This document shows positions 60,401 through 64,000 of a stretch of DNA of 64,000 bases, in pieces (the first letter of the stretch is position 1; every line of letters starts with the position of its first letter). Source of the DNA: Escherichia coli (GTDB lineage: Bacteria > Pseudomonadota > Gammaproteobacteria > Enterobacterales > Enterobacteriaceae). The stretch is from assembly GCF_013122565.1 (NCBI RefSeq), contig NZ_CP053258.1. One strand, 5' to 3'. The position numbers were made by a program.

Positions 60401-63400
60401 AACCAATCATCTTTTCAGCTTTCAGTTTGATGGCCAGTTGAGTGGCAATCTCTTCCGAGGTCAGATTAAAGCTCTCGCCAGTGACTGAAACAGCGACCGG
60501 CCCCATTAGCACTATTGCACCGCTGTCCAGTTGACGATGGATCGCGTCTTCATCAATCCGCCGGATACGCCCGCTATGGCAGTAATCCACGCCGTCATCG
60601 ACGCCCAGCGGCTGGGCAATAATAAAATTGCCACTGACGACGTTGATATGCGCGCCCTGCAGCGGCGTGTTATTGAGACTCATCGACAGGCGAGCAGTAA
60701 TATCCAGTTGCAATGTTCCTGCAGCCTGCTTCACTAGTTCCAGTGTTTTGGCGTCGGTCACACGTATATTCTTGTGATACAGCGGTTCGTGGTGATGCGC
60801 AGCCAGATTTGCGTCGATCTGCGGACGTGCGCCATAGACCACCACCAGACGGATGCCGAGGCTGTGCAACAACCCGATATCATTAACGATACTGGAGAAA
60901 TTCTCATGCTCAATGGCTTCACCGCCGAGCATGATGACAAACGTTTTTCCCCGGTGGGTATTGATATAGGGAACCGAATGGCGGAATCCCTCGACCAGCT
61001 CGGTTTTACGTTCCTTTACCACGGCACACCTCTTTGCATGATTATTCGAAATTATTGTATTTTTATTCTGTTTTTTCGCAGGGTGCAAGTGTAAATTTTA
61101 TGCGAGAGCGACTTTTTTATCAGTAATGCCGTGAATATAAAAAGAATGTTTACCGTTTATTAGATGACAGATTATGCGTCTTTCGCTAAAGTTTCCGGTC
61201 AAATTAGTCGTTTACTTGTTACACAGCTTAGATTTCTTTTGCTCGGGAGAGGCATGTCAGGATCCAACACTGCAATCAGCCGTCGTCGTTTACTGCAAGG
61301 CGCGGGCGCCATGTGGCTATTGAGCGTAAGTCAGGTCAGTCTGGCTGCGGTCAGCCAGGTCGTGGCGGTGCGCGTCTGGCCTGCGTCCAGCTACACCCGT
61401 GTGACGGTAGAATCAAATCGTCAGCTGAAATATAAGCAGTTCGCGTTGAGTAACCCGGAACGCGTGGTGGTGGATATCGAAGATGTAAACCTGAACTCGG
61501 TACTCAAGGGGATGGCGGCACAAATTCGTGCAGACGACCCGTTCATCAAGTCGGCGCGCGTCGGGCAATTTGACCCGCAGACCGTACGCATGGTTTTTGA
61601 ATTAAAGCAAAACGTAAAACCGCAGCTGTTTGCCCTTGCGCCGGTCGCCGGGTTTAAAGAGCGTCTGGTGATGGACCTCTATCCGGCCAATGCACAGGAT
61701 ATGCAGGACCCGCTGCTGGCGCTGCTGGAGGATTACAACAAAGGCGACCTCGAAAAGCAGGTGCCGCCAGCGCAAAGTGGTCCACAACCGGGTAAAGCAG
61801 GGCGCGATCGTCCGATTGTCATTATGCTTGACCCTGGCCACGGTGGCGAAGACTCCGGTGCGGTGGGGAAATACAAAACGCGCGAAAAAGATGTGGTATT
61901 GCAAATAGCTCGCCGTTTGCGCTCTCTGATCGAGAAAGAGGGCAATATGAAGGTGTACATGACGCGCAATGAAGACATCTTCATTCCGTTGCAAGTGCGC
62001 GTAGCAAAAGCCCAGAAACAGCGTGCTGACCTGTTTGTCTCTATCCATGCCGACGCCTTTACCAGTCGCCAGCCGAGCGGTTCCTCGGTGTTTGCGCTCT
62101 CAACCAAAGGCGCAACCAGTACTGCGGCAAAATATCTGGCACAAACCCAGAACGCCTCGGACTTGATTGGTGGCGTGAGCAAAAGCGGTGACCGCTATGT
62201 CGACCACACCATGTTCGATATGGTGCAGTCGCTGACCATTGCCGACAGCCTTAAGTTTGGTAAAGCGGTGCTGAATAAGCTCGGTAAAATCAACAAGCTG
62301 CATAAAAATCAAGTTGAACAGGCCGGGTTTGCCGTACTAAAGGCACCAGATATTCCCTCCATTCTGGTCGAAACGGCGTTTATCAGTAACGTTGAGGAAG
62401 AGCGTAAACTGAAAACGGCGACCTTCCAGCAGGAAGTTGCGGAGTCTATTCTTGCGGGGATTAAAGCGTATTTTGCCGATGGGGCGACGCTGGCGAGAAG
62501 GGGATGATGTTTTTAATTTATTCAATGAATTTATGTTTCATTGAATAAATATTATTTACATAAATGTTGAACGATGGTTTTGTGACTGCTGTCGAATATT
62601 TGAATATCGGCTTAAAAAATAAGCCTGCCATCTCTTTTATTAAGCACAATTCCGTGTAAGGTATACGCATTAGTTAATTATCTTGTAACTGTTAAATCAG
62701 GCAAGGCAATGTTTGAAGTAATTATTACTTCTGACATGCCTTGCCTTTTTTTTTGGAGCCATGGAATGATCATCGAAAAAGTCATGAACAATAATTGTGT
62801 ACAGGCATCGGTGAACGGACAGGAGGTTATCATTTCTGGGCCTGGCGTTGGTTACAATAAAAAATATGGTATGTCGGTCCCTGAACATCCTGCAAACCGG
62901 ATTTTTTATGTCAGAAATGAGCAAAAAAATAAACTCTACAAATTGATTGAGCATGTGGGTATTGAGTATATTTTTGTTGCCGAAAAGATAGTGCATTATG
63001 CGGAGAGTAATCTCGAAAAAAAACTCAATCCATCGCTACTACTGATTCTTGCTGATCACATTTCGAATGCAATATCCCGAGTCGTCTCAGGCATACAAAT
63101 TAATAATGTTTTCCTTGAGGAAATCAAAGCGTTGTACAAAGCAGAGTATGCAATAAGTCGTGATGCATTAACAATCATTAATGAGCAATTTAGCGTTCAA
63201 CTACCGGATGATGAGATTGGTTTTATAGCATTGCATATTTTAAATAATTATGAGAATTCAGTTGATTATGAATCAGTACGGATTATTGAGCTGTCTCAAA
63301 AAATCACGGAGCTTATTGAAGTAGTTTATAACAGAAGAGTGGACAGAAGTTCATTTAACTACTCCAGATTTATGATGCACCTTAAATATTTTTCTAGTCG

Positions 63401-64000
63401 TGTGTTATGTAATGAAAAAATAAAACAGAAAAATATTGGTGATATCTATGAGCAGTTTCTTGAAAAAGATTTTCAGTTACAACGTGCCATTCATGAAATT
63501 GAAAGATATCTGTACGCAACTTTTAAATATGATTTGATTCTGGAAGAAAAACTATATCTTTCTATTCGCATCAAAGTATTAATGGACTAATTATACATAA
63601 CATTTTCATGAGATAACCCGTATGAAACAAAAGAAAGCCTGGAGTTTTTTTCAGAGCCTGGGGAAGGCATTTATGTATCCCATCGCTCTGTTAAGTGTAT
63701 GTGGTATGATGTTAGGGCTGGGAAGTGGTTTAGCCAGCGATGATATGGCAAAATTAATTCCAGTGTTGGCTATTCCGTTAATTAAAACCATACTTGATTT
63801 TATTGTTAGCCTTGGTTTGTTTGCCTTCGTTAATTTACCTGTATTGTTTGCGATAGCTATACCTTTGGGATTATTAAAAGAGAAAGATGATAAAGCCTAT
63901 GGCGCTTTTTCTGGCTTAATTGGCTTTATGGCGATGCATCTTGGAACGAACTTTTATCTTAAACAGCACGACTTATTGGTAGCTGCTGACCAAATGTCGA

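What the first reader, a model, noticed from the sequence alone, without database searches (positions are those of the whole stretch)
62508..64000. Accessory BglG-family antiterminator / PTS locus inserted next to amiC, with an autoregulatory RAT-terminator leader
Directly downstream of amiC, where I recall K-12 carrying Met-tRNA genes and then mltA, this window has AT-rich DNA encoding a BglG/LicT-type antiterminator followed 31 bp later by a PTS EIIC gene. The leader holds a sequence matching the RAT consensus at 21 of 26 positions, overlapping the 5' arm of a hairpin plus T9 terminator that ends 11 nt before the antiterminator start codon. No second RAT or terminator lies between the two genes, so the whole operon appears gated at the leader. 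The sugar specificity is unknown.
Basis: partly seen in the sequence, partly recalled or inferred. Interest (0 to 1): 0.5.

Follow-up and report, generated by a model that had tools for sequence, protein, structure and literature searches.

The report
Sugar-operon antiterminator with RNA switch leader
Next to amiC this E. coli strain carries an accessory five-gene sugar-uptake operon (c3405-c3410 of uropathogenic strain CFT073) whose first gene is a BglG/LicT-type antiterminator, preceded by a strongly conserved RNA switch of the classic kind; it is a sound but ordinary example, and the sugar is still unknown.

Summary

- **Leader.** After the amiC stop codon (62507), G+C falls from about 53% to 29-39%. 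A 29-nt RAT-like hairpin (62680-62708) shares its last 10 nt with the 5' arm of a strong hairpin (62699-62746). A T9 run (62746-62754) ends 11 nt before the ATG.
- **Genes.** The 274-aa protein (62766-63590) has a CAT RNA-binding domain and two PRDs. A MalX-like PTS EIICB gene starts 31 nt later, with no second RAT or terminator in between.
- **Conservation.** In E. coli alleles, E. whittamii, Citrobacter and Atlantibacter the RAT differs at 0-2 of 29 nt, while third codon positions differ by 19-49%. The terminator is kept through compensatory changes.
- **Distribution.** The cassette is in 1688 of 5426 complete E. coli genomes and in 5 of 100,044 species representatives.
- **Prior knowledge.** This is the c3405-c3410 operon beside PAI-CFT073-metV. 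Its SIS protein matches PDB 5UQI, which I recall as the c3406 arabinose-5-phosphate isomerase.
- **What is unusual.** The lower half of the RAT (C3, G26, G/A27) can form a continuous stem instead of the usual internal loop. The CAT domain has Pro26/Tyr30/Asn31.

This is a new member of a known kind, of modest interest.

The parts
61254..62507 (+). amiC (core gene, left flank of the island)
   Evidence: ORF. Annotated as amiC in the collinear strain 07-4299 and in K-12.
62516..62550 (.). Perfect 14-nt inverted repeat made only of A and T, directly after the amiC stop. It occupies the place of the K-12 amiC terminator. Its role is unknown (a weak terminator or a protein-binding site).
   Evidence: the repeat finder pair I1. 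The K-12 sequence at this position differs.
62581..62596 (+). Possible CRP half-site (TGTGA-N6-TC). This is the first block of upstream homology shared with the Citrobacter and Atlantibacter cassettes. The promoter itself was not identified.
   Evidence: Alignments A2 and A5. TGTGA is conserved in all lineages; the second half-site is not kept in Citrobacter MGH106. No sigma-70 match on the + strand.
62654..62674 (+). Conserved block GTGTA-n-GGTATAC-n-CAT-n-AGT just upstream of the RAT. It is a candidate -10 / transcription-start region. An IS5-family element is inserted at TTAG 62670-62673 in strain ES7.
   Evidence: Alignments A2 and A3. IS junctions.
62680..62708 (+). RAT (ribonucleic antiterminator) hairpin, AUCUUGUAACUGUUAAAUCAGGCAAGGCA. 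Predicted pairs are U2-G27, C3-G26, U4-A25, U5-A24, G6-C23, U7-G22, C10-G21, U11-A20 and G12-C19, with A8 and A9 bulged.
   Evidence: Fold of the RAT alone gives -6.3 kcal/mol. All cells pair in 8 distinct sequences. It differs at 0-2 of 29 nt across genera and is at least 99% identical in 1675 of 1688 E. coli genomes.
62699..62754 (+). Intrinsic terminator: hairpin 62699-62746 followed by a T9 run at 62746-62754. Its outer 5' arm (62699-62708) is the 3' strand of the RAT.
   Evidence: -28.0 kcal/mol alone. 92% of cells pair, against 34-55% for slid controls, and two pairs change on both sides. In Atlantibacter it is rebuilt as an 18-bp stem. T9 is present in all orthologues aligned in A2 and A3; one metagenome copy, L018, has T10 after loss of a C.
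62755..62758 (+). Shine-Dalgarno GGAG, 7 nt before the ATG
   Evidence: Sequence. Invariant in alignment A3.
62766..63590 (+). Antiterminator gene (274 aa): CAT domain 1-55, PRD1 73-160, PRD2 178-266. His98, His157 and His205 are conserved; Arg267 sits at the position of LicT His269.
   Evidence: Pfam, NCBIfam, alignment to LicT and GlcT structures, orthologue alignment.
63591..63621 (+). 31-nt gap between the two genes, with no RAT and no terminator
   Evidence: Sequence. Pattern and terminator scans.
63622..64000 (+). 5' part (126 codons) of the PTS EIICB gene, cut off by the window end. The full gene encodes 526 aa in strain 07-4299 and is MalX-like.
   Evidence: NCBIfam TIGR02004 scores 537.7 bits, below its cut-off of 632.

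Best explanation
This is a classic PTS-controlled transcription antitermination switch that gates a horizontally acquired five-gene carbohydrate operon. The genes are an antiterminator, a MalX-like EIICB, a MalY/PatB-type PLP enzyme, a SIS-only arabinose-5-phosphate isomerase and a 2-hydroxyacid dehydrogenase.

Transcription starts somewhere in 62575-62679; the promoter was not identified. By default the leader RNA folds into the hairpin at 62699-62746. Together with the U9 run, this stops RNA polymerase 11 nt before the start codon.

When the unknown substrate is being transported, the EIICB passes its phosphate to the sugar. The antiterminator's PRD1 (His98/His157) is then left unphosphorylated, while HPr can phosphorylate PRD2 (His205). 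The protein dimerises, and its CAT domain binds and stabilises the weak RAT hairpin at 62680-62708.

The RAT hairpin sequesters 62699-62708, the outer 5' arm of the terminator. Only an inner hairpin remains, ending 8 nt before the U run, so polymerase reads through into the whole operon. Because the antiterminator is the first gene, induction is self-reinforcing, and the leader is the only checkpoint.

Shown here: the domain content, the two mutually exclusive RNA structures and their energies, their conservation and covariation, and the gene order. Inferred from the family: the phosphorylation logic, RNA binding, the inducer and the promoter.
For: Protein:
- CAT_RBD plus two PRDs.
- Full-length alignment to LicT and GlcT structures, E = 1e-32 to 4e-26.
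- His98, His157 and His205 are conserved in all orthologues.

RNA:
- The terminator alone folds at -28 kcal/mol, the RAT alone at -6.3.
- Enforcing the RAT costs 9.1 kcal/mol and leaves the U run without an adjacent stem. Without protein, the probability of the RAT at equilibrium is about 0.

Selection:
- The RAT differs at 0-2 of 29 nt and the RAT-to-SD stretch by 2-8% (23% in Atlantibacter). Third codon positions differ by 19-49% and the 40 nt upstream by 5-33%.
- G27 to A keeps the RAT pair (U2-G becomes U2-A). It is matched by C to U in the terminator's 3' arm.
- Atlantibacter rebuilt the stem with several paired changes.

The leader belongs to the cassette:
- It travels with the cassette to a different chromosomal site in Citrobacter, so it is not an amiC terminator.
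- There is one RAT per genome, and only in genomes that carry the operon.

Precedent:
- The same architecture, with autoregulation, has been shown experimentally for nagY-nagE of E. faecalis (PMC9981650).
Against: - No experiment bears on this leader.
- No sigma-70 promoter was found on the + strand upstream, and the DNA is as AT-rich as the H-NS-silenced bgl operon.
- PRD2 is weak in Pfam (E = 0.016), and the fourth regulatory histidine is Arg267. BglG also lacks that histidine.
- The lower half of the RAT lacks the internal loop that LicT, SacT and SacY contact (C3-G26 and U2-G27 can pair). The 'strictly conserved' Phe31 of the CAT domain is Tyr30 here. Binding geometry may therefore differ.
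- RAT conservation is sequence invariance, not covariation.
- Some hosts carry decayed copies.
Confidence: 0.85

Rival explanations
1. The locus is a cryptic, silenced operon, like bgl in K-12. The switch is intact in sequence, but the operon is normally not transcribed because of H-NS on AT-rich DNA and the lack of a good promoter. It becomes active only after mutations such as IS insertion.
For: - G+C is 29-39%.
- There is no sigma-70 match upstream on the + strand.
- An IS5-family element sits 6 nt upstream of the RAT in strain ES7.
- Decayed copies exist: an internal stop in the EIIC gene of E2348/69, truncated antiterminator clusters, and a decayed dehydrogenase in Atlantibacter.
Against: - Purifying selection on the leader and the genes is strong across four lineages.
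- Only 1 of 1688 genomes shows an interrupted leader.
- From memory (Lloyd et al. 2009, J Bacteriol; paper not held): deleting c3405-10 attenuates CFT073 in mouse urinary tract infection, which implies expression in vivo.
- Silencing and antitermination are not mutually exclusive; bgl has both.
Confidence: 0.25
2. The RAT is read mainly by another antiterminator of the host, BglG, so that the operon is wired into beta-glucoside sensing rather than into its own EIICB.
For: The upper half of the RAT (TTGT-ACTG ... CAGGCAA) is the same as in the bgl RATs apart from position 8. Cross-talk among family members is documented in B. subtilis (PMC1635312, PMC3105407).
Against: - The positions that set specificity in B. 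subtilis differ. Here they are C3, A8, G26 and G/A27, against A3, U8, A26 and A27 in bgl.
- The RAT co-occurs strictly with its own antiterminator gene, in 1688 of 1688 genomes.
- The RAT moves with that gene between genera and chromosomal sites.
- The CAT domain is nearly invariant alongside the RAT.
Confidence: 0.05
3. The hairpin plus T9 is simply the terminator of the upstream gene amiC, and the RAT-like match is chance.
For: The K-12 amiC terminator is missing here. amiC is co-directional, and the hairpin is the first strong terminator after it.
Against: - The same hairpin, RAT and T9 sit in front of the antiterminator gene in Citrobacter, where the upstream gene is a different one (LTXXQ family) at another locus.
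- The exact RAT core has a chance expectation well below 0.23 per window.
- The RAT is far more conserved than neutral sites.
Confidence: 0.02

Closest known systems
c3405-c3410 operon beside PAI-CFT073-metV of uropathogenic E. coli CFT073 (GR19 ORFs 119-519 of APEC strain BEN2908)
   Same: This is the same locus.
- It lies between amiC and the tRNA-Met genes and has the same five gene families (PMC2831201; PMC12928451).
- The SIS protein is virtually identical to PDB 5UQI/5VHU. I recall that entry as c3406, the SIS-only arabinose-5-phosphate isomerase of Mosberg et al. 2011 (cited in PMC4470864).
   Different: - The window carries the less common allele: the best match in the collection is 99.3% identical, whereas the B2/CFT073-type allele is 90-95% identical.
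- In strains with the window-type allele, such as 07-4299, the cassette abuts the tRNA genes directly, without the type VI secretion island.
- None of the papers I could read describes the RAT-terminator leader.
E. coli bglGFB (BglG with two RAT-terminators)
   Same: A CAT-PRD-PRD antiterminator is the first gene, with a leader RAT overlapping a terminator. It is followed by the sensing PTS permease. Both are AT-rich loci, and both have three of the four regulatory histidines.
   Different: - bgl has a second RAT-terminator between bglG and bglF; here the gap is 31 nt with none.
- Only about 30% protein identity; the BglG model scores 105 bits against a cut-off of 322.
- The permease here is a glucose-family EIICB without EIIA, not BglF-type EIIBCA.
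- There is no phospho-beta-glucosidase.
- The lower half of the RAT differs.
E. faecalis nagY-nagE (NagY)
   Same: A single leader RAT/terminator, then the antiterminator gene, then a glucose-family PTS permease gene. NagY is autoregulated, and its terminator is conserved through compensatory mutations (PMC9981650).
   Different: - NagE is specific for N-acetylglucosamine.
- NagY also controls a distant gene, hylA. Here I found no second RAT in any genome at near-identity.
- The host is a Firmicute.
B. subtilis GlcT-ptsG and LicT-bglPH/licS
   Same: These give the best family scores: LicT model 230 bits, GlcT 182 bits. The phosphorylation logic through PRD1 and PRD2 is the one assumed here. 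GlcT also pairs with a glucose-family permease.
   Different: - Both scores are below the curated cut-offs, so this is not an equivalog.
- glcT lies upstream of the RAT and is not autoregulated by it.
- LicT needs A26 and a purine at position 3; GlcT needs two base triples (PMC1635312). Here the positions are C3 and G26.
- The CAT domain has Pro26 (as in SacT), Asn31 (as in SacY) and Tyr30 in place of the conserved Phe.
E. coli malX-malY (MalI regulon)
   Same: A MalX-like EIICB lacking EIIA is followed directly by a MalY/PatB-type PLP enzyme. Identities of 41% and 36% are reported in PMC12928451.
   Different: - malXY is regulated by the MalI repressor, not by antitermination.
- It has no SIS isomerase or dehydrogenase.
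- The EIICB here scores below the MalX cut-off (537.7 against 632 bits).

Membership tests
BglG/SacY (CAT-PRD) transcription antiterminators | N-terminal CAT RNA-binding domain | tested here: met
   Pfam CAT_RBD covers residues 1-55, E = 8.7e-14. Aligns to LicT CAT (1L1C) and to CAT-PRD1 structures 6TWR and 3RIO.
BglG/SacY (CAT-PRD) transcription antiterminators | Two PTS regulation domains (PRD1, PRD2) | tested here: met
   PRD1 is residues 73-160, E = 1.6e-23. PRD2 is residues 178-266, only E = 0.016 in Pfam. However, residues 57-270 align end to end with the LicT PRD1-PRD2 crystal sequence 1TLV, E = 1.3e-32.
BglG/SacY (CAT-PRD) transcription antiterminators | Conserved phosphorylatable histidines in the PRDs (LicT H100, H159, H207, H269) | tested here: inconclusive
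   His98, His157 and His205 are present in all nine orthologues. The fourth position is Arg267 in all of them. E. coli BglG has Asn there, so three of four is compatible with membership.
BglG/SacY (CAT-PRD) transcription antiterminators | Target RNA: a RAT hairpin whose 3' strand overlaps the 5' arm of an intrinsic terminator | tested here: met
   The RAT is 62680-62708 and the terminator 62699-62754, a 10-nt overlap. Conserved with compensatory changes.
BglG/SacY (CAT-PRD) transcription antiterminators | RAT with two internal loops (lower loop nt 3/26-27, upper loop nt 7-9/22) contacted by the CAT dimer | tested here: inconclusive
   The upper loop is present (U7, A8, A9 against G22). The lower-loop positions can form C3-G26 and U2-G27 (U2-A27 in other genera), which gives a continuous stem. 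The 3D structure cannot be tested with these tools.
BglG/SacY (CAT-PRD) transcription antiterminators | Cognate PTS permease with an EIIB domain encoded in the same locus | tested here: met
   The EIIC gene starts at 63622. The full-length orthologue has PTS_EIIC plus PTS_EIIB domains.
BglG/SacY (CAT-PRD) transcription antiterminators | Sugar-dependent RNA binding and read-through | not testable with these tools
   Needs reporter fusions, EMSA and northern blots.
LicT, GlcT or BglG equivalogs (NCBIfam NF046042, NF047357, NF007295) | Whole-protein score above the curated cut-off | tested here: not met
   230.5 against 300, 181.8 against 320 and 104.7 against 322 bits. The next relatives outside the enterobacterial cassette are 36% identical.
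MalX (PTS maltose/glucose EIICB, TIGR02004 / PRK10110) | Score above the curated cut-off | tested here: not met
   537.7 against 632.2 and 522.1 against 665 bits. It is a MalX-like paralogue with EIIC plus EIIB and no EIIA.
c3405-c3410 operon beside PAI-CFT073-metV | Position between amiC and tRNA-Met; gene set of antiterminator, EIICB, MalY-like, SIS isomerase and PGDH-like dehydrogenase | tested here: met
   Gene order in strains collinear with the window matches the descriptions in PMC2831201 and PMC12928451. The SIS protein matches PDB 5UQI with E = 6e-122. The window itself shows only the first two genes.

The most novel reading that the evidence does not exclude
The CAT domain (Pro26/Tyr30/Asn31) and this RAT (C3, A8, G26, with a continuous lower stem instead of the lower internal loop) form a further specificity class of the BglG/SacY family. 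This class would be insulated from BglG and confined to a few Enterobacteriaceae. It would bind its RNA with a geometry different from the pseudo-symmetric two-loop recognition seen for LicT. It would report on a still unidentified host-derived carbohydrate that matters for urinary-tract fitness.
Probability: 0.25. Interest if true: 0.45.

Novelty: new member of a known kind. Interest (0 to 1): 0.27.

Why it matters
- **Status of the operon.** It is named in the literature but its function is unsolved. It lies beside a pathogenicity island. As I recall from Lloyd et al. 2009, it was tied to bladder and kidney colonisation by CFT073.
- **A route to the inducer.** Knowing that a single RAT-terminator gates expression gives a direct experimental handle. 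A leader-reporter fusion could be used to screen for the unknown inducing sugar. A PRD1 or EIICB mutation should switch the operon on constitutively.
- **Interest for the protein family.** CAT-type antiterminators are rare outside Firmicutes (PMC12591593). Many E. coli strains carry both this system and BglG, so the pair is a natural test of how cross-talk is avoided.

Tried and rejected
- **Rfam.** Rfam has no matching family for the leader; all nine hits were chance-level eukaryotic families with E above 1.
- **Terminator scan.** The simple scan missed the leader hairpin because of its bulges. It reported only a chance-level site inside the EIIC coding region.
- **Promoter.** No sigma-70 match on the + strand. 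I considered -10 candidates TAAGGT (62657-62662) and TATTAA (62638-62643), and a CRP-like TGTGA-N6-TC site. I could not decide between them, and the second CRP half-site is not kept in Citrobacter MGH106.
- **Extended or canonical lower RAT stem.** Alternative registers are not conserved between lineages, so I rejected them.
- **Further RAT targets.** I found none. There is one site per genome in E. coli and one in the island. A metagenome scan for the A27 variant gave only two hits, both at the same Citrobacter-type locus.
- **Primary papers.** Lloyd 2007 and 2009, Mosberg 2011 and Gordon 2015 are not held. Statements taken from them are marked as memory.
- **Substrate.** I tried to infer it from the enzymes and reached no defensible assignment.
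Full report
**What is in the sequence**

The 3' end of the window reads recD, argA (minus strand), then amiC ending at 62507. In K-12 only 73 bp separate amiC from metV, which is followed by metW, metZ and mltA. In the window, G+C falls from 0.52-0.55 to 0.29-0.39 right after the amiC stop.

A 274-codon ORF follows at 62766-63590, with GGAG 7 nt upstream of its ATG. After a 31-nt gap, an EIIC-type ORF begins at 63622 and runs off the window.

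Between amiC and the first ORF lies a long hairpin (62699-62746). It is followed by nine T (62746-62754), ending 11 nt before the ATG. The fold has an MFE of -31.4 kcal/mol, z = -3.3, and none of 200 shuffles folds as well.

Immediately 5' of the hairpin, and overlapping it by 10 nt, is ATCTTGTAACTGTTAAATCAGGCAAGGCA (62680-62708). Its core, TTGTNACTG-N6-CAGGCAA, is the core of the two real K-12 bgl RATs. That core occurs exactly once in the window.

The '21 of 26' figure depends on the consensus chosen. Against the bgl leader RAT I count 16 of 29, or 16 of 23 outside the apical loop.

**The protein**

Pfam finds a CAT RNA-binding domain (residues 1-55, E = 8.7e-14), PRD1 (73-160, E = 1.6e-23) and a weak PRD2 (178-266, E = 0.016). 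Residues 57-270 align end to end with the LicT PRD1-PRD2 crystal sequence (1TLV, E = 1.3e-32). Residues 2-166 align with CAT-PRD1 structures of a BglG-family protein and of GlcT.

NCBIfam ranks the LicT model first (230 bits), then GlcT (182) and BglG (105). All are below their curated cut-offs.

Three of the four regulatory histidines are present: His98, His157 and His205. The position of LicT His269 is Arg267 in every orthologue. BglG has Asn there.

At the RNA-contacting positions defined for LicT (Gly26, Arg27, Phe31, Gln32; PMC3105407) this protein has Gly25, Pro26, Tyr30 and Asn31. Pro is what SacT has, and Asn is what SacY has. Tyr replaces a Phe that the paper calls strictly conserved.

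**The RNA switch**

- Folded alone, the RAT forms .((((((..(((......))))))))). at -6.3 kcal/mol. The terminator forms at -28.0 kcal/mol.
- In the full leader the terminator has an equilibrium probability of about 1 and the RAT about 0.
- Enforcing the RAT costs 9.1 kcal/mol. It leaves only an inner hairpin ending at 62737, 8 nt short of the U run.

This is the textbook arrangement. Termination is the default, and a protein that stabilises the RAT removes the stem that must abut the U tract.

**Related sequences**

The locus is present in 1688 of 5426 complete E. coli genomes. It occurs as two alleles: the window type, and a type 90-95% identical found in B2-like strains.

A scan of one genome for each of 100,044 species found it only in five: E. 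coli, E. whittamii, two Citrobacter species and Atlantibacter hermannii. Protein searches show the same narrow group, at 76-79% identity. There is then a gap down to 36% identity with Clostridia LicT-like proteins.

In Atlantibacter the cassette sits at the same amiC-mltA site. In Citrobacter it sits at a different site, between an LTXXQ-family gene and dnaQ-rnhA. Roughly 190 nt of upstream DNA comes with it, with recognisable homology over the proximal ~105 nt. The leader therefore belongs to the cassette and is not an amiC terminator.

| Comparison with the window | E. coli-type alleles | Other genera |
|---|---|---|
| RAT differences (of 29 nt) | 0 | 1-2 |
| RAT-to-SD stretch | 2-3.5% | 7-8% (23% in Atlantibacter) |
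| 40 nt upstream of the RAT | 5-17.5% | 22-33% |
| Third codon positions | 19-25% | 44-49% |

Within E. coli, 1675 of 1688 genomes are at least 99% identical over the RAT, although most differ by 5-10% over the locus.

The terminator pairs in 92% of cells, against 34-55% for slid controls. Two pairs change on both sides. One of them is informative. G62706 to A keeps the RAT pair (U2-G27 becomes U2-A27), and it is matched by C62739 to U in the terminator's 3' arm. Atlantibacter has rebuilt the hairpin as an 18-bp near-perfect stem in a register shifted by one.

The RAT itself is invariant rather than covarying. That is what one expects of a protein-binding site, but it does not by itself prove the fold.

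**How this RAT differs from characterised ones**

Its upper half (nt 4-12 and 19-25) is canonical. TTGTAACTG and ATCAGGCAA are identical to the RATs of a Clostridium tertium licT-type locus.

The lower half is not canonical. B. subtilis work shows that positions 3, 8 and 26 set specificity. LicT needs A26 and a purine at position 3. SacY needs U3 and U8. GlcT needs base triples (PMC1635312). Here the positions are C3, A8, G26 and G/A27.

C3-G26 and U2-G27 (or U2-A27) can pair, which gives a continuous lower stem with no internal loop. The two closing G-C pairs of canonical RATs are absent as well. Alternative registers are not conserved.

Together with Pro26/Tyr30/Asn31 in the CAT domain, this suggests a distinct RNA-protein pair that is insulated from BglG. 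That remains an inference.

**The rest of the operon and what is already known**

In strains collinear with the window, the two genes are followed by three more:

- a MalY/PatB-family PLP enzyme, whose best solved relative is MalY (1D2F);
- a 198-aa SIS-only protein;
- a PGDH-like 2-hydroxyacid dehydrogenase.

The tRNA-Met genes come next. B2-type strains have a type VI secretion cluster between the dehydrogenase and the tRNAs.

This is the set c3405-c3410 inside or beside PAI-CFT073-metV, labelled 'PTS system, maltose/glucose specific' in PMC2831201. It is also listed as GR19 ORFs 119-519 of BEN2908 in PMC12928451.

The SIS protein matches PDB 5UQI/5VHU with E = 6e-122. From memory, that is c3406, the SIS-only arabinose-5-phosphate isomerase of Mosberg et al. 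2011; the reference itself is confirmed in PMC4470864. Also from memory, Lloyd et al. 2009 mapped the attenuation of the PAI-metV deletion in mouse urinary tract infection to c3405-10. Neither paper is held, so those two statements are not tool-verified.

I found no description of the leader RAT-terminator in any paper I could read. Gordon et al. 2015, who searched a uropathogenic genome for RAT motifs, is not held.

**Mechanism and rivals**

The best-supported account is canonical PTS-controlled antitermination with positive autoregulation and a single checkpoint in the leader. This is the arrangement shown experimentally for nagY-nagE in E. faecalis (PMC9981650).

Not shown here: the promoter, the phosphorylation steps, RNA binding and the inducer.

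The main rival, which is compatible with the first account, is that the operon is largely silent, as bgl is. Several observations point that way:

- the DNA is AT-rich;
- no sigma-70 promoter was found upstream on the + strand;
- one strain has an IS5-family element 6 nt upstream of the RAT;
- some copies are decayed.

Cross-regulation by BglG is unlikely, given the strict co-occurrence and co-transfer of the RAT with its own antiterminator. The amiC-terminator reading is refuted by the Citrobacter context.

**Verdict**

It is a new, somewhat divergent member of a well-understood class of regulators. It sits in front of an accessory operon that is already named in the literature and whose substrate is still unknown. 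Interest is modest. The practical value is that the leader offers a simple reporter with which to find the inducer.

Noticed in passing
window 62516-62550: A perfect 14-nt inverted repeat made only of A and T (ATTTATTCAATGAA / TTCATTGAATAAAT, 7-nt spacer) lies directly after the amiC stop. It sits where K-12 has a G+C-rich amiC terminator. In the B2 allele one arm changes A to G, which would still allow a G-U pair in RNA.
   Followed up: partly
L007 3133-3185 and 4345-4400 (strain ES7), equivalent to window 62670-62673: An IS5-family element (ISEc68) is inserted at TTAG, 6 nt upstream of RAT nucleotide 1, with the target duplicated. It was found in 1 of 1688 genomes. It recalls the activation of the bgl operon by IS insertion, but it could equally disconnect the native promoter.
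   Followed up: partly
L010 7713-13240, L012, L014, L016 (Citrobacter) versus window 62508 onwards: The same five-gene cassette with its leader sits at a different chromosomal site in Citrobacter (LTXXQ-family gene, then the cassette, then dnaQ-rnhA). No integrase, transposase or flanking repeats were seen. Shared upstream homology starts at about window 62575.
   Followed up: partly
L005 2114-2292 (E2348/69); L008 12226-14001 and L009 7237-8184 (Atlantibacter); proteins P0010-P0016: Some hosts show signs of decay. The EIIC gene of E2348/69 is annotated with an internal stop. The 2-hydroxyacid dehydrogenase is split or not called in Atlantibacter. Several clusters of truncated antiterminator proteins (150-197 aa) occur in E. 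coli.
   Followed up: no
window 62761-62769: A two-codon mini-ORF, ATG-GAA-TGA (ATG-AAA-TGA in most other copies, including E. whittamii and E. coli E69), has its stop codon overlapping the antiterminator's ATG. It is conserved in all lineages. The Shine-Dalgarno spacing favours the annotated start at 62766.
   Followed up: no
L001 14696-16469 versus L004 11694-13468: In the window-type allele the MalY/PatB-like gene encodes 402 aa and overlaps the SIS gene by 32 nt. In the B2-type allele it encodes 391 aa and does not overlap. The two alleles therefore have different C-terminal ends.
   Followed up: no
L020 5001-8834: A distant relative (36% identity, unnamed Firmicute-like contig) pairs a CAT-PRD antiterminator and an EIIBCA permease with an ADP-ribosylglycohydrolase-family gene instead of a glycoside hydrolase. 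Its leader carries a divergent RAT-like sequence before a hairpin and T run.
   Followed up: no
window 63644-63668: This is the only site reported by the terminator scan, and it lies inside the EIIC coding region. It is at chance level: 1 found against 1.2 expected.
   Followed up: yes
E. coli genome search: One of the 1688 copies of the locus is on a record classed as a plasmid. I did not examine it.
   Followed up: no
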